DNA of 64,000 bases from Candidatus Paceibacter sp. (lineage in GTDB: Bacteria > Patescibacteriota > Minisyncoccia > Phycocordibacterales > BOKC01). The stretch spans positions 3,103 to 67,102 of the forward strand of contig DYGD01000003.1 in the NCBI GenBank assembly GCA_020724885.1, in the 5' to 3' direction. Both the position numbers and the translations under genes were made by a program. Below are positions 3,778 to 62,750 of the stretch, in pieces (position 1 is the stretch's first letter; each line of letters begins with the position of its first letter). Under the pieces are notes generated by a model. It saw only the letters and a list, made by a program, of their open reading frames with translations. It was not told the DNA's origin and made no database searches.

Positions 3778-3825
3778 GATAATATTATACTACTTCATCC
3801 TCTCAAAATTTTTGGCTGTGGAATT

Positions 3826-4089
3826 ATGCAATACCTTTACATTCTAAAAAGCACTGTGGATGATGAGTTGTATGTCGGTTGCACAAATAATCTCAAGAAA
3901 AGGATAGAATTGCATAATTCCAAGAAAGTATATTCAACAAGCAGTAGATGTCCATTTGAGCTGATATACTATGAGGCGTATTTGAACAAAAAAGACGCTT
4001 TCGCAAGAGAGCAATTTTATAAGTCCGGCTGGGGAAGAAAGCATATCAAGAAAATTCTTGCTAATTACTTTCACAGCCAAAAAATTTAG
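3826..4089 (+). CDS. GIY-YIG nuclease superfamily protein (YhbQ/UPF0213-like)
   Basis: MQYLYILKSTVDDELYVGCTNNLKKRIELHN...FELIYYEAY...AFAREQFYKSGWGRKHIKK matches the GIY-YIG core; start moved to the internal ATG at 3826 (ORF track starts at 3763). Confidence 0.7.
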   Translation: MQYLYILKSTVDDELYVGCTNNLKKRIELHNSKKVYSTSSRCPFELIYYEAYLNKKDAFAREQFYKSGWGRKHIKKILANYFHSQKI

Positions 4090-4097
4090 GAGGACAA

Positions 4098-13172: not shown

Positions 13173-13835
13173 TCAGCTTGCGGCAGACACAGTGGCAGAG
13201 GGCCCAAGAACAGAATTACTGCGAGAGAACACCATGAGGCCAGCGTCCCACCTGCCCGGGTACTCAACGGGGTCGGCGCGGACGAGCCAGCCGTCGCCAT
13301 CCCAGAAGACGTAGACCGCGCGAAGGACGCCATTCCGGTCGTGAGCGTAGAAGATGTTGGCACGGCCGTTGTTCAAGAGAACGCCGGCTTCGCCGTTCTT
13401 CTGTAGTGTCATGAGGTGGTAGATATGTCTGAGTGTCGTTCTTGGGTTCTCCTCCCCGCCGAGTTCGGCGATGATGGGTCCGTCCACCTCTTGTCTTGTG
13501 AGCTTGTAGTAGCAGAGAGTGGCATAGCTTTCCGGCTCTTCTGCCATCCCGCCGAAGTAGTTTCGGAAGTTGTATCCGATGAAAGAGATATTGACCGGAG
13601 CTTTTGGACTTGTGTCCACCTTGAAGTGGTCGTCCACGATGAACGGCTCCGTGCCGGCCGGCACATCCACAGTGCCGATGTGTTGGAGGAGTAGTGGCTT
13701 GGAAGCTTCGTTGATCTGAAACTCCACCGTTCCGTTGAGAACACCGATGACGGTTTTCGCGCCTCCAACCTTCTTGACGAAGGCGTTCAGTTGTCCGACG
13801 GTTAGACTGGCAGATGCGAATTCGGGTGAACTCAT
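13173..13835 (-). CDS. hypothetical protein (220 aa) encoded in a G+C-rich island; no recognisable domain
   Basis: Balanced amino-acid composition (MSSPEFASASLTVGQLNAFVKK...VYVFWDGDGWLVRADPVEYPGRWDAG...), GGAG RBS 7 nt before the ATG. The two other long ORFs over the same DNA are Arg-rich alternate frames. Confidence 0.55.
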   Translation of the reverse strand: MSSPEFASASLTVGQLNAFVKKVGGAKTVIGVLNGTVEFQINEASKPLLLQHIGTVDVPAGTEPFIVDDHFKVDTSPKAPVNISFIGYNFRNYFGGMAEEPESYATLCYYKLTRQEVDGPIIAELGGEENPRTTLRHIYHLMTLQKNGEAGVLLNNGRANIFYAHDRNGVLRAVYVFWDGDGWLVRADPVEYPGRWDAGLMVFSRSNSVLGPSATVSAAS

Positions 13836-13901
13836 CTTTACTCCTTGCCCTTGCTCGGGCGGTTTGATTTGCTCTAATCCGAGCTAGGAGCCATGCCAAC
13901 A

Positions 13902-13951
13902 TGGTCATAGCCAGAAAACCTCTATATTTCAAGGTCTTTTGGCTATGACCA
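13902..13951. promoter_or_regulatory. 12-bp perfect inverted repeat TGGTCATAGCCA-N26-TGGCTATGACCA upstream of the island ORF
   Basis: Arms 13902-13913 and 13940-13951; operator-like dyad about 70-115 bp upstream of the island ORF start. Confidence 0.4.
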
Positions 13952-19907: not shown

Positions 19908-21008
19908 TTAACGGTTCATCGGCATCACTAAATAAAGAAAACTTTTGTCGCCGACACCCCTTATAACCATTGGTTTGGAAACATCATTTAATGACACAGA
20001 AACGCTGTCGGCGGTTAAAGAATTCAAGCAGTCAGAGACGTATTTCAAATTGAAACTGATATCTATGTCTTTACCGGAAAGAGCCGCGTCGATGCTGTAA
20101 ATATTTTCTCCTAGTTCGGTATTTTTTGTTTTCATTTCAAAAACCTTTTTTACCGGATAAATCACTAAATTTATTTGGTTGAATTTATCAGACATGACGT
20201 TAGCTAACTTTAGAGAAGAAGCCAAATCTTGCCTCAAAACAACTGCTTCTGTTTCAAACTCTTTTGGAATTATTTGCTTATAATCCGGAAAAGTGCTGTC
20301 AACAAGGCGCGAGGTTATGTAAGTCCCGCCGGAACTCAAGGATATTTGATTTTTATCAATAAAAACAGAAACATCTCCACCTTCTCCGTCAAGAATTCGG
20401 GTGATTTCCAAGGCGTTTTTATACGGCAGAAGAACGTTACCAAAATCCTTTGACTGCTTTAACTTGATTCTTTTTTCTGCCAACCTAAACGAATCTGTTG
20501 CGGCAAAGACCAAATCTTCCGAATCGCTATAAATAAAAACACTTGAAAGCTCTGGTTTGATTGATGACTGGGTTGAGCTGTACCAGACGGCCTTTAAGCC
20601 ATTTACAAAATCAGAAGCTGGCATATTAAACGGCTCGGATTTTGTTTCTGGAATACTTGGAAAATCATTTGGGTCTTTGGTTTTTATTGTCGCGAAATTT
20701 TTATTTGTCGTAAGTTTAACCTCGCCGTTAGACCCCTCAAATTTTATATTTTTGGTCTCCGGTAAGTTGCCAATCAAATTTATCAAAACCTCTCCCGGTA
20801 CTGCAACTACCCCGGGGGTTTCTGTTTTTACCGGGACCTCCAACCTGATTCCGATATCCAGGTTTGTCGCTTTTATAATCAATCGATTATTTTTATTTTC
20901 CAAAAGAAAACAACTTAGCACTGGCAACCCAGGATTTCTGTTGGTTGCGATTTTTCCGGCTTTAGTTATGGCGTCTAGTAATTTATCTTTTATACATTCA
21001 AATTTCAT
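19908..21008 (-). CDS. dnaN: DNA polymerase III beta sliding clamp
   Basis: 366 aa; MKFECIKDKLLDAITKAGKIATNRNPGLPVLSCFLLE typical DnaN N-terminus; three-domain length. Confidence 0.85.
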   Translation of the reverse strand: MKFECIKDKLLDAITKAGKIATNRNPGLPVLSCFLLENKNNRLIIKATNLDIGIRLEVPVKTETPGVVAVPGEVLINLIGNLPETKNIKFEGSNGEVKLTTNKNFATIKTKDPNDFPSIPETKSEPFNMPASDFVNGLKAVWYSSTQSSIKPELSSVFIYSDSEDLVFAATDSFRLAEKRIKLKQSKDFGNVLLPYKNALEITRILDGEGGDVSVFIDKNQISLSSGGTYITSRLVDSTFPDYKQIIPKEFETEAVVLRQDLASSLKLANVMSDKFNQINLVIYPVKKVFEMKTKNTELGENIYSIDAALSGKDIDISFNLKYVSDCLNSLTADSVSVSLNDVSKPMVIRGVGDKSFLYLVMPMNR

Positions 21009-59722: not shown

Positions 59723-59795
59723 ATCTCTTCAAAAACTAAAACTTTCTTAAGTAAAATACCGCCGGCCAAATGGTCGGTGGTATTTTACTTAAGGA

Positions 59796-59813
59796 TGTGG
59801 GATGGGAGAATCG
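59796..59813 (-). repeat. 18-nt direct repeat of the tRNA-Gly(TCC) 3' end (17/18 identical), 197 bp from the intact gene
   Basis: tgtgggatgggagaatcg vs tgcgggatgggagaatcg at 59993-60010; intervening 180 bp includes a G+C-rich stretch (59830-59940). Confidence 0.5.
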
Positions 59814-59992
59814 GTCAGCTTCGTCGGATTTTTTACTTCGCTCTGCTCGCAAAAAATCTCGACTACCCGACCCGCGCTTGGCGGCTCGCCGCTCGCAATG
59901 CTCGCGTCGGCTTCGCGCCGCCTCGGTTCAATTCTCCCTTTCCCTATAAAAATATACTCCGTAAATAATTCTTATTCACTCCGTTATTTTTT

Positions 59993-60063
59993 TGCGGGAT
60001 GGGAGAATCGAACTCCCAACCTCAGTTTGGAAAACTGATATTTTACCATTAAACTAATCCCGC
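59993..60063 (-). tRNA. tRNA-Gly (anticodon TCC)
   Basis: Acceptor GCGGGAT/ATCCCGC, anticodon stem TCAGT/ACTGA loop TTTCCAA, T-arm GGGAG-TTCGATT-CTCCC. Confidence 0.75.
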
Positions 60064-60103
60064 AACTCTTCATTGGAAGAGTTTACCAGTTTACAAGAAA
60101 TTT

Positions 60104-60133
60104 AAAAGCCCCGCGCGCAAGCGCGGGGCTTTT
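60104..60133. terminator. GC-rich hairpin AAAAGCCCCGCGCGC-aa-GCGCGGGGCTTTT
   Basis: Perfect stem with flanking A-run and T-run; 40 bp from the tRNA-Gly 5' end. Confidence 0.55.
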
Positions 60134-60353
60134 AAACTACATAGCAGTTTCTTCTTCGGTAGGGGTTTCAGGAGTAGGAGTGGTTTGCTCATCTCCTGTC
60201 GGAGTTGTTTGATCGTCCATTGTGATTTTCAGATTAACCCTGAGAAACCTGTTTCCTAAAAAAAATTAAGAAACAGACAAAGCAGAGCGCGCTGATAATT
60301 AAATCCGGCCAATTAAGCCAGATTTAAATCATTATACACTATTTTTTAAAAAG

Positions 60354-60659
60354 TCAAAGCTTTTTGGAAGAAATGTCTATAACTTTTTGGAAATCGTCTT
60401 TATCGCTCACCCCATTTCTTTTTTTAAATCGGCAGATTTCGCATTCGTGGACTAAAAAATATTTGCCGCTTTTTTTAAAGACAGATACTGGTCTCATCAT
60501 CCCACCGCACTCGGCTCTCCTATCTCCGGGGTTTATATCAACATGCCGGCTCCAAAGGCATTTTGGGCAATGATTGGTGTAGCCGTTTCCGCTTACACTA
60601 TGTCCACATTTTTTACAAACAAAATCCTCCTTATTTTTTTGAAATTTTCTCGCCCCCAT
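60354..60659 (-). CDS. RNHCP-domain zinc-ribbon protein (101 aa)
   Basis: From ATG 60659: FVCKKCGHSVSGNGYTNHCPKCLWSRH...ECGGMMRP...HECEICRF with the (R/T)NHCP motif and Cys pairs. Confidence 0.55.
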   Translation of the reverse strand: MGARKFQKNKEDFVCKKCGHSVSGNGYTNHCPKCLWSRHVDINPGDRRAECGGMMRPVSVFKKSGKYFLVHECEICRFKKRNGVSDKDDFQKVIDISSKKL

Positions 60660-60703
60660 ATTTGGCAAAAATATGCTAACATAGCAAGGCCTTGGAGAAA
60701 AAG

Positions 60704-60763
60704 CGGGGCGTAGTATATCGGCAGTATACATGGTTTGGGACCATGAGGTCCGAGCACGCCCCC
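60704..60763 (+). pseudogene. tRNA-Pro-like pseudo-copy (acceptor 5' strand, D-arm and anticodon arm intact; T-loop deleted)
   Basis: CGGGGCG-TA-GTAT-ATCGGCA-GTAT-A-CATGG-TTTGGGA-CCATG-AGGT-CCGAG then CACGCCCCC; a 45-nt block nearly identical to the true tRNA-Pro 98 bp downstream. Confidence 0.5.
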
Positions 60764-60798
60764 ACACCAATATTTGAAATAAAGTAAGTATGTTATTA

Positions 60799-60869
60799 CG
60801 GGATGTAGTATAGTGGTAGTATACATGGTTTGGGACCATGAGGTCCGAGTTCGATTCTCGGCATCCCGA
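60799..60869 (+). tRNA. tRNA-Pro (anticodon TGG)
   Basis: Acceptor CGGGATG/CATCCCG, anticodon stem CATGG/CCATG loop TTTGGGA (G37), T-arm CCGAG-TTCGATT-CTCGG. Confidence 0.75.
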
Positions 60870-60917
60870 AAAAATATATTGGTGTGAGATAAAATTCTCG
60901 GCGCTCTAATAGCCAAA

Positions 60918-61277
60918 TCACTCCGGCACCACATCTTCTATAATCTTAATTCTTGCTGTGCCGGATTCCGGATTTAACAAAATTGGTATGACCAAAAAAC
61001 GCCAATTTTTCCCTTCCAGGTTTTTTCTCAAGGTGTAAATTTGAATGGCGCGGGAGATTCTTTTTAACTTATAATGGTCTACCCTTTCTTCTGGCCGATT
61101 TTCTTTATCTACTTTGTCTAAACTGGTTTTAACTTCAACAAAATAAAATTCTTTGTCTTTTATGGCAATAATGTCCAACTCACCTACTTTCTTACTGAAA
61201 TTCCTTTCTACAATTTTAAACCCCCTTTTTACCAGATAAGCGGAGGCAATTTCTTCGCCCTTTTTTCCTATATTCAT
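60918..61277 (-). CDS. yraN: YraN/UPF0102-family endonuclease
   Basis: GEEIASAYLVKRGFKIVERNFSKKVGELDIIAIKDKEFYFVEVKTS matches the YraN core. Confidence 0.7.
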   Translation of the reverse strand: MNIGKKGEEIASAYLVKRGFKIVERNFSKKVGELDIIAIKDKEFYFVEVKTSLDKVDKENRPEERVDHYKLKRISRAIQIYTLRKNLEGKNWRFLVIPILLNPESGTARIKIIEDVVPE

Positions 61278-61368
61278 TATCTTTAAATTTCTAAAGAACC
61301 TTCGCCCTAAAGGTCAGTTTAGGGACTTTTTTAGGTAATTTGTCCTTTTAATTCACATTTCCACAGAG

Positions 61369-61390
61369 TTATCCACAGATTTGTGGATAT
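61369..61390. promoter_or_regulatory. inverted pair of DnaA boxes: TTATCCACA (perfect) - GATT - TGTGGATAT (8/9)
   Basis: TTATCCACAgattTGTGGATAT, 92 bp upstream of the yraN start, in an AT-rich spacer that also holds a stem-loop + T6 (61305-61332). Confidence 0.5.
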
Positions 61391-61523
61391 TTGTTATCAA
61401 AAAAGCGTTGAAAATCTGCCTTAAATTATGGCTTTTTAGTCAAAGTTTATTCAATTTTTCCGATCTTCGTGTTGCTATCAAAGTTCTTTAGGACACTTTA
61501 TGCGGGCACCCACACCTTTCATG

Positions 61524-61811
61524 TTACTGCAGACTTTCAGAAATTCTTCTTTTAAGTCGGGCGAACGCTTTACCATCTTTTGTAAGAGACACTTCCCGTT
61601 TAGGAGCGTCAGATTCACTATGAAATGCTTCATAGTAGCGCAGTAAAAACGGTTTCCGCGGTTTTGTAGATGGCACTTTTCCCTCGTTGTGTTCTGAAGG
61701 TCTGCGTTTCAAATCATCAGTAGAGTCGATATATAAATTTCCATCCTTCTTACTTTTCAAAAAAAGCGATAATACATACTTATTGTTACCTATGATTTGA
61801 AACAATAACAT
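61524..61811 (-). CDS. GIY-YIG nuclease superfamily protein (second copy)
   Basis: KYVLSL...GNLYIDSTDDLKRRPSEHNEGK...PFLLRYYEAFHSESDAPKRE matches the GIY-YIG core; directly abuts tRNA-Gly(GCC). Confidence 0.6.
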   Translation of the reverse strand: MLLFQIIGNNKYVLSLFLKSKKDGNLYIDSTDDLKRRPSEHNEGKVPSTKPRKPFLLRYYEAFHSESDAPKREVSLTKDGKAFARLKRRISESLQ

Positions 61812-61823
61812 GAAAGGTGAGGG

Positions 61824-61894
61824 TGCGGGCAGGGAGAATCGAACTCCCGTCTGATCCTTGGCAAGGATCTGTCATGCCACTAAACTATGCCCGC
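61824..61894 (-). tRNA. tRNA-Gly (anticodon GCC)
   Basis: Acceptor GCGGGCA/TGCCCGC, anticodon stem GATCC/GGATC loop TTGCCAA, T-arm GGGAG-TTCGATT-CTCCC. Confidence 0.75.
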
Positions 61895-61983
61895 GATTTA
61901 ATTGACCAGCAAAATCCTACAATTCACAACTCAAGAATATCAGAATCAAAATTAATTTCAATTTTCGGCTGTTGGTTTATTTG

Positions 61984-62056
61984 CGTCCCTGAGAGGATTT
62001 GAACCCCTGGCCTCTTCCTCCGGAGGGAAGCGCTCTATCCGCTGAGCTACAGGGAC
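61984..62056 (-). tRNA. tRNA-Arg (anticodon CCG)
   Basis: Acceptor GTCCCTG/CAGGGAC, D-arm GCTC-AGCGGATA-GAGC, anticodon loop CTCCGGA, T-arm AGGGG-TTCAAAT-CCTCT. Confidence 0.75.
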
Positions 62057-62145
62057 AAAATTTTAATATCGGGGTCTGTTAAATCCCGACGCTTCAGTCG
62101 GGACCTCGACCTCCGGCACACCCTGTGGTCGGAGCTCCAACGATA

Positions 62146-62218
62146 TACCCCCGGAAGGAATCGAACCCTCATCTGCGGTTCCGAAGACCGCTGCTTTTAT
62201 CCTTTAAGCTACGGGGGC
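62146..62218 (-). tRNA. tRNA-Arg (anticodon TCG)
   Basis: Acceptor GCCCCCG/CGGGGGT (G1-U72), D-arm GCTT/AAGC, anticodon stem GCGGT/ACCGC loop CTTCGGA, T-arm GAGGG-TTCGATT-CCTTC. Confidence 0.65.
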
Positions 62219-62239
62219 GATTGATTTGTACCACCGTCT

Positions 62240-62647
62240 TTATTTTGCAGTTTTTCTCCTATGACAATTGGCACATAAAACTTGACATTTTACTATTTCC
62301 TCCTTTATTGTATTTAAATTGTGATTCCTCCCAAGAATTGATACATCAGAAGTCTTTATAAAGTTCGGGAGATGATCAAACTCTAGAACAATAGGATCTT
62401 TTTCGCCACAATGCAAGCAAGGATGTTTTTTTAAATAATCATGCAGATATTTTCTGATTTCACTCCTAATTCTTTTGTTCCTCTTATATGCTTTCAATAA
62501 ATAATATTTTTTATTTTTTTCATAATGTGATTTTAAGTAAAATCGTCCACATTTCTTACAGTAACCATGCTTAATACCTCTTTCTTTATTTTTAAAACTA
62601 AATTCATCTAAAGGCTTTTCAATTTTACATCGATTACAAATTCTCAT
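62240..62647 (-). CDS. HNH endonuclease with zinc-ribbon motifs (135 aa)
   Basis: CNRC...C..C N-terminal Cys cluster and HNH core HPCLHCG...DHLPNF...N...CANCH. Confidence 0.6.
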   Translation of the reverse strand: MRICNRCKIEKPLDEFSFKNKERGIKHGYCKKCGRFYLKSHYEKNKKYYLLKAYKRNKRIRSEIRKYLHDYLKKHPCLHCGEKDPIVLEFDHLPNFIKTSDVSILGRNHNLNTIKEEIVKCQVLCANCHRRKTAK

Positions 62648-62750
62648 TGCAATATTATATCAAATTACTACTTCGAATCATAGTCAGCTTTCAAGGGACA
62701 AAGTAGACGCGATTAGCTAAAAATCAAAGCGTATATTAAAATTACTTGAA

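What the first reader, a model, noticed from the sequence alone, without database searches (positions are those of the whole stretch)
59790..62660. tRNA-dense hotspot with partial tRNA duplications and four small nuclease-type genes
Within 2.9 kb there are five tRNAs (Gly-TCC, Pro-TGG, Gly-GCC, Arg-CCG, Arg-TCG). There is also an 18-nt direct repeat of the tRNA-Gly(TCC) 3' end flanking a G+C-rich 180-bp segment, and a 60-nt tRNA-Pro pseudo-copy that lacks its T-loop, 98 bp upstream of the real tRNA-Pro. The same stretch holds genes for an RNHCP zinc-ribbon protein, a YraN endonuclease, a GIY-YIG nuclease and an HNH endonuclease, plus a 29-aa acidic micro-ORF and isolated hairpin terminators. 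Partial tRNA direct repeats are the usual scars of site-specific integration or excision. The co-occurrence of homing-type nuclease folds (GIY-YIG, HNH) suggests repeated mobile-element traffic or decay at this locus. No integrase remains.
Basis: partly seen in the sequence, partly recalled or inferred. Interest (0 to 1): 0.55.

Follow-up and report, generated by a model that had tools for sequence, protein, structure and literature searches.

The report
tRNA-copying structured element beside tRNA-Gly
The GC-rich stretch behind a glycine tRNA gene is one copy of a widespread, apparently undescribed family of small folded non-coding elements that sit behind tRNA genes of Patescibacteria and carry a forward and a reversed copy of that tRNA's tail; it is most likely a miniature mobile element, and the rest of the locus is an old tRNA cluster that has picked up two small nuclease genes.

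Summary
The five tRNAs are not an accreted hotspot. The array Gly(TCC)-Pro(TGG)-Gly(GCC)-Arg(TCG) downstream of RNase Y and HU is conserved in 31 Patescibacteria loci. The spacers between the tRNAs vary from 3 bp to 4.2 kb. YraN (38 loci) and RNHCP (21 loci) are resident genes. GIY-YIG and the probable HNH gene are lineage-specific insertions.

The G+C-rich segment (59793-59947, minus strand) is the main result. It belongs to a structured family that is absent from Rfam 15. A model built from 7 copies found 109 copies in 80 metagenome loci, 73 of them directly 3' of a tRNA. They follow 31 anticodon types and also tmRNA. Pairing is strong: 95.9% of cells pair, and the covariation score is 0.51 against 0.15 for shuffles.

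Each copy brackets its conserved core with a reverse-complement copy and a direct copy of the neighbouring tRNA gene's 3' end, starting in the T-loop. Copies occur in tandem arrays. No recombinase gene is linked to them.

My best reading, at about 0.55, is a non-autonomous, tRNA-gene-targeting mini mobile element. The main rival is a tRNA-mimicking processed RNA.

The tRNA-Pro pseudo-copy keeps the ancestral acceptor stem and is a decayed gene copy, not an att-type repeat.

The parts
59992..60064 (-). tRNA-Gly(TCC). Its positions C56 to A73 (59993-60010) are the sequence 'X' that the element copies.
   Evidence: ARAGORN; Rfam 71.5 bits
59945..59991 (-). Spacer S between the tRNA and the element: AAAAATAACGGAGTG...TATATTTTTATA. 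This is the 'type A' spacer, shared by elements behind Gly, Glu and Pro tRNAs elsewhere.
   Evidence: No terminator or promoter is predicted in it on the minus strand.
59927..59944 (-). 5' arm X' (GGGAAAGGGAGAAUUGAA): an imperfect reverse complement of the tRNA-Gly(TCC) T-loop, T-stem 3' strand and acceptor 3' strand.
   Evidence: Inverted repeats I3 and I25; fold; model alignment
59814..59926 (-). Conserved structured core B. It is a three-way junction: P2 hairpin, P3 (GGUCG/UGACC) and P4 hairpin with a GAGCAGAGCGAAG loop.
   Evidence: Covariance-model match 59793-59947 at 86.8 bits, E=1e-23; the opposite strand scores 10.5 bits. Covariation.
59796..59813 (-). 3' arm X (CGAUUCUCCCAUCCCACA): a direct copy of tRNA-Gly(TCC) positions 56-73 with 1 mismatch. 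It pairs with X'.
   Evidence: (D2)
59741..59798 (.). Bidirectional hairpin terminator shared by hupA (+) and by tRNA-Gly plus the element (-).
   Evidence: Inverted repeat I2: 28 nt, 86% complementary
60101..60136 (.). Perfect 16-bp hairpin terminator between the micro-ORF and tRNA-Gly(TCC).
   Evidence: I7
60137..60220 (-). 27-aa acidic micro-ORF (MDDQTTPTGDEQTTPTPETPTEEETAM).
   Evidence: One look-alike lies beside tRNA-Gly(TCC) in L023.
60354..60662 (-). RNHCP-domain zinc-ribbon protein, a conserved resident of the array.
   Evidence: Pfam E=1.7e-28; homologues in 21 loci at the same position
60704..60764 (+). tRNA-Pro pseudo-copy. It has the ancestral acceptor stem, D arm and anticodon arm, but no T-loop or T-stem 3' strand.
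   Evidence: (D1)
60763..60886 (.). An 11-bp perfect inverted repeat (60763-60773 / 60876-60886) that brackets the intact, inverted tRNA-Pro.
60799..60869 (+). Intact tRNA-Pro(TGG). It has a derived acceptor stem CGGGAUG/CAUCCCG and is inverted relative to nearly all relatives.
60894..60904 (+). ATTCTCGGCGC: a relic of ancestral-type tRNA-Pro positions 58-68, lying 24 nt after the intact gene.
   Evidence: It is the only occurrence in the window.
60918..61277 (-). YraN/UPF0102 endonuclease-fold protein, a conserved resident.
   Evidence: Pfam E=8e-20; NCBIfam YraN; present in 38 loci
61501..61831 (-). GIY-YIG cassette. The ORF is 61524-61811. It is bracketed by a 29-nt inverted repeat (61501-61529 / 61803-61831). 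The outer 8 nt, TGCCCGCA, repeat the tRNA-Gly(GCC) 3' end.
   Evidence: Pfam E=4e-9; (I1). The bracket is unique among 68 window ORFs. The gene is absent from nearly all relatives.
61822..61894 (-). tRNA-Gly(GCC)
61983..62056 (-). tRNA-Arg(CCG), an extra member of the array; among the relatives it is seen only in L034.
62146..62218 (-). tRNA-Arg(TCG)
62240..62647 (-). 135-aa zinc-ribbon protein, probably HNH (beta-beta-alpha-metal fold). It is a lineage-specific insertion between tRNA-Arg(TCG) and cca.

Best explanation
The locus is an ancient, conserved tRNA array of Paceibacteria-type Patescibacteria that serves as a landing zone for small mobile DNA.

The G+C-rich 155-nt segment after tRNA-Gly(TCC) is an intact copy of a multi-copy, non-coding element family. 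Read on the tRNA strand, its architecture is:
- the tRNA gene;
- a spacer S, often a terminator hairpin;
- X', the reverse complement of the tRNA gene's T-loop, T-stem 3' strand and acceptor 3' strand, in many copies split by a small hairpin H;
- a conserved three-way-junction core B;
- X, a direct copy of the tRNA gene from T-loop position C56 to its 3' end, sometimes running into the trailer.

Shown: the family exists. It folds as a single strand of the tRNA sense. It always follows a tRNA or tmRNA gene. Its arms track that particular gene. It forms tandem arrays. It has no linked protein gene.

Inferred: it is a non-autonomous, site-specific mobile element mobilised in trans. It inserts at or just after the T-loop-to-3'-end segment of tRNA genes, leaves the tRNA intact and duplicates X as an att- or target-like repeat. 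The folded core is the substrate, or the guide, of the unknown enzyme. That enzyme could be a tyrosine recombinase acting at the T-loop, or an HUH-type single-strand enzyme with base-paired target recognition.

The GIY-YIG gene and the probable HNH gene are separate, lineage-specific insertions of free-standing nuclease genes into the same array. The tRNA-Pro pseudo-copy, the inverted intact tRNA-Pro and the 11-nt relic record a rearrangement at the tRNA-Pro T-arm.
For: Family and structure.
- A covariance model from 7 copies finds 13 strong copies in 81 sources from related genomes and 109 copies in 80 metagenome loci.
- 95.9% of cells pair. 21 of 26 pairs show changes on both sides. The covariation score is 0.511, against 0.146 for shuffles and at most 0.067 for slid partners.
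- One G-U pair is conserved in 95 of 107 sequences. The opposite strand of the window copy scores 10.5 bits against 86.8.

Link to tRNAs.
- 73 of 109 copies lie less than 120 nt 3' of a same-strand tRNA and 10 more sit in tandem behind such a copy. 31 anticodon types are involved, and tmRNA in L087 and L104.

The arms track the neighbour.
- A perfect 12-nt copy of tRNA positions 61-72 is present in 29 of 58 elements, against 0% with non-cognate tRNAs. The complement of the acceptor strand is perfect in 18 of 58, against 0.5%.
- X carries CCA only when the gene encodes it: 33 of 36 genes without CCA have none in X, and 6 of 7 genes with CCA have it.

Mobile-like behaviour.
- Tandem arrays: L134 holds 2.5 units, L091 three copies and L156 four copies in 2 kb.
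- Presence is patchy: about 8 of 53 orthologous tRNA-Gly(TCC) sites carry an element, and the window's closest relatives do not.
- In L121, a Gly-type unit sits in the T-loop of a tRNA-Pro fragment. It is 94% identical to the copy behind tRNA-Gly on the same contig.
- Cores 91-94% identical sit behind Arg(CCG) in L109 and L122 and behind Ala(GGC) in L133 and L149.
- Solo relics of X exist in L008 and at window 60894-60904.
- The distal X decays without compensation: X' follows the tRNA copy at 10 of 10 informative sites.
- No recurrent flanking protein was found.

Locus.
- The array is conserved and its spacers are variable. YraN occurs in 38 loci and RNHCP in 21. GIY-YIG occurs in 3 sources and the HNH-like gene in 1.
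Against: - No transposase or integrase has been found next to any copy.
- No excised or circular form and no clean filled-versus-empty pair of near-identical genomes was seen.
- How X' (internal) and X are rewritten when the element appears behind a different tRNA is unexplained. Simple cut-and-paste or Campbell integration does not produce conserved and tRNA-specific segments that alternate.
- The conserved G-U pairs and the G-C/G-U/A-U exchange pattern look more like selection on RNA than on DNA.
- In the window there is no terminator between tRNA-Gly and the element, and a strong one right after X. This fits co-transcription as a functional RNA.
- The L121 arrangement can also be read as gene conversion between two resident elements.
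- The viral-contig scan found only one chance match.
Confidence: 0.55

Rival explanations
1. The element is a functional non-coding RNA, a 'tRNA companion'. It is co-transcribed with, or made just after, the tRNA. Its closing helix reproduces the acceptor and T-stem minihelix of the neighbouring tRNA, so RNase P, RNase Z and the CCA-adding enzyme trim and finish it. The core B then acts as an effector, for example by binding a protein. The identity of the arms to the neighbour is kept by gene conversion or template switching with the adjacent tRNA gene.
For: - The fold is strongly conserved, with RNA-type covariation and conserved G-U pairs.
- The folding strand is always the tRNA strand.
- In the window there is no terminator between tRNA-Gly(TCC) and the element, and a strong one directly after X.
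- The window copy folds at -71 kcal/mol, z=-5.6.
- The closing helix has the sequence of the acceptor 5' strand joined to the T-stem 5' strand, paired with the T-stem 3' and acceptor 3' strands. In L012, L066 and L061 a hairpin sits at the junction.
- tRNA-mimicking bacterial RNAs are known (YrlA, PMC4201824, listed).
Against: - In most copies a terminator-like hairpin separates the tRNA from the element.
- The family is sporadic: about 13-17 copies among roughly 190 tRNA genes in the genome loci, and 1 of 7 tRNAs in the window.
- Tandem stacks of up to three or four copies exist.
- Mutations in the distal X are not compensated in X' (10 of 10 sites), so the closing helix is not under strong selection.
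- Processing enzymes do not require identity to the particular neighbouring tRNA.
- X' also complements the T-loop and, where the gene encodes it, CCA. No tRNA 5' half does this.
Confidence: 0.27
2. The repeats are attL/attR-type scars of a larger integrative element (prophage or island) that has been lost or has decayed, and the G+C-rich DNA is what remains of it.
For: - The direct repeat starts in the T-loop and runs to the tRNA 3' end, as for elements that integrate in tRNA genes.
- Partial tRNA genes left by integration are well documented (PMC9897764).
- Solo relics exist in L008 and at window 60894-60904.
Against: - The segment is not random residue. It matches a 127-position structural model at 86.8 bits.
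- More than 100 other copies share the same compact architecture and size (median 127 nt).
- None of them encloses or adjoins integrase or phage genes.
- The reverse-complement arm X' is not produced by ordinary integration.
Confidence: 0.1
3. The features are ordinary tRNA paralogy or chance repeats with no biological meaning.
For: T-loop and T-stem sequences are similar among tRNAs, so short repeats between tRNA genes are expected (D2, D4, I4).
Against: - The 18-nt repeat has 0 expected matches in shuffles.
- The arms match the cognate tRNA but not others.
- Covariation is far above both controls.
Confidence: 0.02

Closest known systems
Integrative elements that recombine in the T-loop of tRNA and tmRNA genes and carry the tRNA 3' part in attP (own knowledge: Williams 2002, sublocation classes; tRNA fragments from integration: PMC9897764)
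   Same: - The targets are tRNA and tmRNA genes.
- The direct repeat begins in the T-loop and runs to the 3' end.
- The tRNA stays intact.
- Elements can stack in tandem at the same tRNA.
- Solo relics are left behind.
   Different: - Size is 100-250 nt, not kilobases.
- There is no integrase and no gene at all.
- A conserved single-strand fold is present.
- There is an additional reverse-complement copy of the tRNA tail.
- One family is found behind at least 31 different tRNA species.
Non-autonomous hairpin elements mobilised in trans by HUH enzymes (REPINs with RAYTs, IS200/IS605 PATEs; own knowledge)
   Same: - They are short, non-coding and multi-copy.
- They are strand-specific folded elements in intergenic DNA.
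- No protein is encoded in cis.
- IS608 recognises its target by base pairing between a guide next to a hairpin and the flanking target. This has the same topology as target X, then spacer, then X', then hairpin.
   Different: - Known guides are 4 nt, not about 20.
- Known elements keep the same ends wherever they insert. Here the arms change with the neighbouring tRNA.
- No HUH gene has been identified. This is a resemblance only.
Integron gene cassettes and attC sites (own knowledge)
   Same: - They are small, sometimes ORF-less units.
- They are stacked in arrays at one attachment site.
- The recombination site is a folded single strand with conserved structure and variable sequence.
- They are mobilised in trans.
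   Different: No IntI, attI or GTTRRRY core is evident. The attachment site here is a tRNA gene, and the arms copy it.
tRNA-mimicking RNAs: the tmRNA tRNA-like domain, bacterial Y RNA YrlA (PMC4201824), viral tRNA-like structures
   Same: The closing helix has the sequence of an acceptor stem stacked on a T stem. It may be a substrate of tRNA-processing enzymes.
   Different: - The T-loop is not intact; it is paired and opened by the core.
- There is no D-arm or anticodon-arm analogue.
- It does not match the Rfam models of these RNAs.
- The mimicry is of the particular neighbouring tRNA.
Free-standing homing endonuclease genes inside phage T4-type tRNA clusters (segB GIY-YIG, mob HNH; own knowledge)
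   Same: Small GIY-YIG and HNH-type genes lie between tRNA genes. They are sporadic among relatives.
   Different: - This is a cellular genome.
- The proteins are catalytic-domain-only (95 and 135 aa), with no recognised DNA-binding domain.
- The GIY-YIG ORFs are bracketed by long inverted repeats.
- Cleavage specificity is unknown.

Membership tests
tRNA (Rfam RF00005), for the pseudo-copy 60704-60764 | Score at or above the gathering threshold, and a complete cloverleaf with a T-arm | tested here: not met
   27.9 bits against a gathering score of 29. ARAGORN does not call it. The T-loop and T-stem 3' strand are absent.
Any described RNA family (Rfam 15), for the element 59793-59947 | A match to a curated covariance model | tested here: not met
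   No match up to E=10 in the window, none at gathering threshold, and none on five other loci holding 12 copies.
tRNA-gene-targeting integrative element | A direct repeat of the tRNA 3' part (from the T-loop or anticodon loop to the 3' end) flanking the inserted DNA, with the tRNA intact | tested here: met
   Window: 17 of 18 nt. Family: perfect 12-nt copy in 29 of 58, against 0% in controls. The repeat starts at C56.
tRNA-gene-targeting integrative element | An integrase or recombinase encoded in the element | tested here: not met
   The element has no ORF. No recurrent flanking protein was found near 81 copies. A recombinase acting in trans cannot be excluded.
MITE or other non-autonomous transposon | Multi-copy, short and non-coding, with terminal inverted repeats and a target duplication | tested here: inconclusive
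   Multi-copy and non-coding: met. Inverted arms and a direct repeat exist, but both are copies of the target tRNA rather than element-specific ends.
MITE or other non-autonomous transposon | An autonomous partner with matching ends; insertion polymorphism between close relatives | not testable with these tools
   The only near-identical sequences to the window (99.9%) have the same arrangement.
tRNA-like RNA (tmRNA tRNA-like domain, YrlA, viral TLS) | Acceptor stem plus an intact T-arm with a T-loop; recognition by tRNA enzymes | tested here: inconclusive
   The acceptor and T-stem sequences are reproduced, but the T-loop is replaced by the core. There are no Rfam hits. Enzyme recognition cannot be tested here.
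GIY-YIG nuclease (PF01541), ORF 61524-61811 | Pfam match above the gathering score | tested here: met
   37.0 bits against a cut-off of 22.6, E=4.3e-9
HNH endonuclease (PF01844), ORF 62240-62647 | Profile match; beta-beta-alpha-metal fold with the catalytic His, Asn and His residues | tested here: inconclusive
   Pfam E=1.9. 7 of 28 homologues hit PF01844, best E=0.0016. D91-H92, N127 and H129 are invariant, as are two CxxC pairs. The AF2 model has pLDDT 94, but Foldseek finds only Cap5 HNH at E about 0.7.
YraN/UPF0102 and RNHCP | Pfam or NCBIfam match above threshold | tested here: met
   PF02021 at 71.4 bits and PF12647 at 98.9 bits. The NCBIfam YraN models match (best E=4e-22) but stay below their curated cut-offs.
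Free-standing homing endonuclease gene | Sporadic presence at a conserved site among relatives; site-specific cleavage of the gene-less allele | tested here: inconclusive
   Sporadic presence is met. In L088, tRNA-Arg(TCG) and cca are about 60 bp apart, which marks the HNH-like gene as an insertion. Cleavage cannot be tested.

The most novel reading that the evidence does not exclude
The element may be a new class of self-targeting or programmable entity. In this reading a scaffold RNA (or folded single-stranded DNA) uses its X' segments, about 20 nt and split by a hairpin, as a base-pairing guide to the 3' end of a tRNA gene or of the tRNA itself. The guide would be rewritten from the neighbouring gene, for example by template switching. 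One scaffold could then colonise or act on any tRNA. Alternatively it is a family of per-tRNA mimic RNAs that are finished by RNase P, RNase Z and the CCA enzyme and regulate or decoy the cognate tRNA's 3' end.
Probability: 0.25. Interest if true: 0.92.

Novelty: new variant of a known kind. Interest (0 to 1): 0.8.

Why it matters
If the reading is right, Patescibacteria (CPR) carry an abundant small element that targets the most conserved sequence available, the tRNA T-arm, and copies its target in both orientations around a conserved fold. I found no description of it in the sources I could search. These bacteria have tiny genomes and very little intergenic DNA.

- It gives a concrete system for asking how a non-coding element with no protein of its own recognises and re-targets to dozens of different tRNA genes.
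- That question touches on guide-based target recognition, as in IS200/IS605, IS110 and TnpB.
- It also touches on the old idea that the acceptor and T-arm 'top half' of tRNA is a general recognition tag.

In practice these elements are easily misread as tRNA fragments, att scars or unexplained G+C-rich spacers. A covariance model would let them be annotated. It would also allow tests of whether they mark strain-level variation and horizontal transfer in CPR genomes.

Tried and rejected
- Known structured RNAs (SRP RNA, 6S, RNase P RNA, tmRNA, ribozymes, YrlA) were considered for the G+C-rich segment. They were rejected because Rfam gives no match up to E=10 and ARAGORN finds no tmRNA there.
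- Priming or copying from mature tRNA (a retro-element-like primer-binding site) was rejected. The arms carry CCA only when the gene encodes it.
- A phage or viral attP source was sought. One scan of viral contigs gave a single chance hit in G+C-rich coding DNA.
- A coding function for the element was rejected. In L035 an ORF runs through it, but this is an in-frame read-through into a downstream GIY-YIG gene that has its own start.
- oriC was considered for the DnaA-box pair at 61369-61390. This is unlikely: there are only two boxes, and the GC-skew minimum lies near 46-50 kb.
- The G+C-rich spacer between the two tRNA-Arg genes is not a family member.
- An exact look-up of the 90-aa HU protein found nothing. 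The YraN look-up found only the same strain, so it gave no information on polymorphism.
- Five literature searches found no description of the element. This does not prove that none exists.

Full report
**What is at the coordinates**

ARAGORN and Rfam find five tRNA genes between 59992 and 62218: Gly-TCC (-), Pro-TGG (+), Gly-GCC (-), Arg-CCG (-) and Arg-TCG (-). Pfam confirms an RNHCP zinc-ribbon protein (60354-60662), a YraN/UPF0102 protein (60918-61277) and a GIY-YIG protein (61524-61811).

The fourth ORF (62240-62647) is only probably an HNH enzyme.
- Pfam HNH gives E=1.9.
- Sequence searches of the PDB find no nuclease; their weak matches are unrelated zinc-ribbon or helical stretches.
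- A confident AlphaFold model (pLDDT 94) matches only the HNH protein Cap5, weakly (E about 0.7).
- The protein belongs to a family of more than 900 unannotated proteins of about 145 aa. The family has invariant CxxC, CxxC, D-H, and C-x-N-C-H residues, and 7 of 28 members touch PF01844.

The 18-nt repeat of the tRNA-Gly(TCC) tail is real: 17 of 18 positions match, and none is expected by chance. The tRNA-Pro pseudo-copy is also real. Its first 51 nt are 90% identical to the intact gene, the T-arm is missing, and it scores 27.9 bits on Rfam tRNA against a gathering score of 29. The flanking genes are RNase Y, HU and the CCA-adding enzyme. A JGI contig and four Logan contigs from the same strain show the identical arrangement.

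**The tRNA cluster is ancestral; its spacers are not**

I used RNase Y as an anchor to fetch 80 loci from Patescibacteria MAGs, with at most 77% amino-acid identity. The order Gly(TCC)-Pro(TGG)-Gly(GCC)-Arg(TCG) recurs in 31 loci including the window, nearly always all on one strand. The spacers vary widely:
- Gly to Pro: 22 to 4185 bp;
- Pro to Gly: 355 to 2340 bp;
- Gly to Arg: 3 to 2537 bp.

The spacers hold 49 ORF clusters, 31 of them singletons. YraN is present in 38 loci and RNHCP in 21, at the same positions. GIY-YIG occurs only in the window (twice), L069 and L035, and the HNH-like gene only in the window. The array is therefore old, two of the four 'nuclease-type' genes are residents, and two are lineage-specific insertions.

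**The G+C-rich segment is a member of a structured family**

On the minus strand, 59790-59955 folds at -71 kcal/mol (z=-5.6). The closing helix pairs GGGAAAGGGAGAAUUG with CGAUUCUCCCAUCCC. The segment therefore begins with a reverse complement of the tRNA tail and ends with a direct copy of it.

Relatives show the same arrangement behind tRNA-Gly(TCC) (L035, L050, L066, L012, L023, L046). They also show it behind tRNA-Pro (L051, L066, L034, L061), Gly(GCC) (L001, L047) and Arg(TCG) (L046). In each case the arms match that genome's own tRNA.

An alignment of seven copies gave a consensus of 26 pairs, 13 with compensatory changes, and the model R1. R1 then found 109 copies in the 80 loci returned.

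On that alignment:
- 95.9% of cells pair;
- 21 of 26 pairs change on both sides;
- the covariation score is 0.511, against 0.146 for shuffles and at most 0.067 for slid partners.

One G-U pair is kept in 95 of 107 sequences and another position shows 37 G-U pairs. The window's opposite strand scores 10.5 bits against 86.8. The folding strand is therefore the tRNA strand. The window holds one copy only. Rfam 15 has no model for it. Five literature searches found no description.

**Architecture and the link to tRNAs**

Of the 109 copies, 73 lie less than 120 nt 3' of a same-strand tRNA. Ten more sit in tandem behind such a copy, and 13 of the remaining 26 are at a locus edge. Thirty-one anticodon types are involved, and tmRNA in L087 and L104.

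Read on the tRNA strand, the order is:
- the tRNA gene;
- spacer S, usually a terminator-type hairpin;
- X'a, the complement of the acceptor 3' strand, including CCA when the gene encodes it;
- in 39 of 59 copies, a small hairpin H;
- X'b, the complement of the T-stem 3' strand and T-loop;
- AAAG;
- core B, with helices P2, P3 and P4 and a consensus ...UCGAAAG-CCG-GAG...CGAG-GCG-GGGUCG...GUGAC;
- X, a copy of the tRNA gene from C56 to its 3' end, sometimes up to 15 nt further.

The arms match the cognate tRNA far more often than controls:

| Segment | Perfect match | Non-cognate control |
|---|---|---|
| tRNA positions 61-72 in X | 29 of 58 (42 of 58 with at most 2 mismatches) | 0% (1.7%) |
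| Complement of acceptor strand in X'a | 18 of 58 | 0.5% |
| Complement of T-stem 3' strand in X'b | 20 of 58 | 5.7% |

X mirrors the gene rather than the mature tRNA. 33 of 36 genes without CCA have no CCA in X, and 6 of 7 genes with CCA have it. This argues against copying from mature tRNA.

**Evidence bearing on mechanism**

For a mobile element:
- Tandem arrays exist: L134 has 2.5 units with diverged cores but near-identical S, X' and X. L091 has three copies behind one tRNA. L156 has four copies in 2 kb.
- Presence is patchy. About 8 of 53 orthologous tRNA-Gly(TCC) sites carry an element, and the window's nearest relatives are empty.
- In L121, a complete Gly-type unit (X, S, X', H, B) is 94% identical to the copy behind tRNA-Gly on the same contig. 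It sits in the T-loop of a tRNA-Pro fragment and is followed by the Pro-type X and trailer.
- Cores 91-94% identical occur behind Arg(CCG) (L109, L122) and behind Ala(GGC) (L133, L149), with different arms and spacers.
- The 'type A' spacer is shared by copies behind Gly, Glu and Pro tRNAs.
- A solo X relic of a foreign allele lies in L008.
- Distal-X mutations are not compensated in X': it follows the tRNA copy at 10 of 10 informative sites.
- No conserved neighbouring protein was found.

For a single-stranded nucleic acid being what matters:
- The strand-specific fold already described.
- The heptamer GCGNAGC occurs 48 times on the sense strand, 3 times on the antisense strand and 14 times in shuffles. 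From my own knowledge it forms very stable DNA mini-hairpins. This is a lead, not a test.

For RNA:
- The G-C/G-U/A-U exchange pattern.
- In the window, no terminator lies between tRNA-Gly and the element, and a strong one follows X directly.

Unexplained: how the internal X' segments are rewritten when the same core appears behind another tRNA. Possible routes are quasipalindrome template switching against the adjacent tRNA gene, guide-type recognition as in IS608, or capture of the tRNA 3' part by a shifted left boundary. These are inferences only.

**The tRNA-Pro locus**

Relatives carry tRNA-Pro on the minus strand, mostly with the acceptor stem CGGGGCG/CGCCCCG. The window's intact gene is inverted and has the derived stem CGGGAUG/CAUCCCG.

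The pseudo-copy keeps the ancestral 5' strand and a CGCCCC 3' strand. It shares a 30-nt identical anticodon-arm block with the intact gene and lacks 12 nt of T-loop and T-stem. An 11-bp perfect inverted repeat (60763-60773 / 60876-60886) brackets the intact gene. An 11-nt relic of ancestral-type positions 58-68 follows it at 60894-60904.

The pseudo-copy is thus a decayed or interrupted whole gene tied to a rearrangement at the T-arm. It is not an att-type partial repeat, and it is not a plausible functional T-armless tRNA: it has a C1-C72 mismatch and a fold z of only -2.2.

**The nuclease genes**

The GIY-YIG ORF is bracketed by a 29-nt inverted repeat (61501-61529 / 61803-61831). The outer 8 nt, TGCCCGCA, repeat the tRNA-Gly(GCC) 3' end. 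Among 68 window ORFs this bracket is unique, scoring 18 against at most 8 for the others.

The window's second GIY-YIG gene (3826-4089) is 50% identical in amino-acid sequence and has its own 29-nt bracket. The L069 gene has a perfect 14-nt bracket. The arm sequences differ between copies, so these are not one transposon with fixed ends. The brackets may be mRNA 5'-3' pairing that limits expression, or traces of insertion.

In L088, tRNA-Arg(TCG) and cca are about 60 bp apart. This marks the HNH-like gene as a roughly 500-bp insertion.

**Verdict**

The locus is a conserved tRNA array that acts as an insertion hotspot.

Its most interesting component was misread as a scar. It is a complete copy of a widespread structured element that is missing from Rfam 15 and from the literature I could search. 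It is linked to tRNA genes and copies its neighbour's tail in both orientations.

I rate a trans-mobilised, tRNA-gene-targeting mini element as most likely (about 0.55). A functional tRNA-mimicking RNA is second (about 0.27). A decayed remnant of a larger integrative element is third (about 0.1).

Noticed in passing
window 61369-61390: A palindromic pair of DnaA-box-like sequences (TTATCCACAGATTTGTGGATAT) lies about 95-115 bp upstream of yraN. It is conserved at the DNA level in L019, L027, L014, L023, L001 and L021. The GC-skew minimum lies elsewhere (about 46-50 kb), so it is probably an operator or a hairpin rather than oriC.
   Followed up: partly
window 3798-4094: A second GIY-YIG gene (3826-4089, +) is 50% identical in amino-acid sequence to the one at 61524-61811. 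It is also bracketed by a 29-nt inverted repeat (3798-3826 / 4066-4094). The L069 GIY-YIG gene (20189-20473) has a perfect 14-nt bracket.
   Followed up: partly
L032 (after tRNA-Gly 13340), L061 (after tRNA-Gly 14223), L067, L066 (~20430-20630): A second, different core type (GGGGUCGGGAGAGG...CCCGUGGAGGAA...GGAAAACCGUGGGUUUCC) uses the same logic: a reverse-complement arm of the upstream tRNA tail. In L066 it sits in tandem with a type-1 element behind tRNA-Pro.
   Followed up: no
L087 3111-3206 and L104 3839-3940: These elements lie directly 3' of tmRNA genes, and their arms copy the tmRNA 3' end.
   Followed up: yes
window 62057-62145: A G+C-rich 89-nt spacer lies between tRNA-Arg(TCG) and the extra tRNA-Arg(CCG). 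It contains a 9-bp hairpin (fold z=-2.2). It is not a member of the element family. Arg(CCG) is otherwise seen only in L034.
   Followed up: partly
window 60137-60220; L023 12862-12966: An acidic, Thr/Pro-rich micro-ORF lies next to tRNA-Gly(TCC). One similar ORF (MDTTNPTPGEDVV...) was found in L023. No other case turned up in 81 sources with a strict composition filter.
   Followed up: partly
window 62240-62647: The HNH-like protein belongs to a family of more than 900 proteins of about 145 aa. None of the 120 listed has a Pfam annotation. The family occurs in Patescibacteria and also in Chloroflexota and Solirubrobacterales records. It combines an N-terminal zinc ribbon, a long helical hairpin and a CxxC/DH/CxNCH module.
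   Followed up: partly
L008 ~13770-13790 (downstream of tRNA-Gly 13841-13912): A solo copy of a foreign-allele tRNA-Gly tail (CGATTCTCTCTACCCGCAC) lies after a terminator hairpin, with no core. It looks like a relic of an earlier event at the same site.
   Followed up: no
elements in L087-L166 (sense strand): The heptamer GCGNAGC (a mini-hairpin with a GNA triloop) is strongly strand-biased within the elements and their spacers: 48 on the sense strand, 3 on the antisense strand and about 14 in shuffles.
   Followed up: partly
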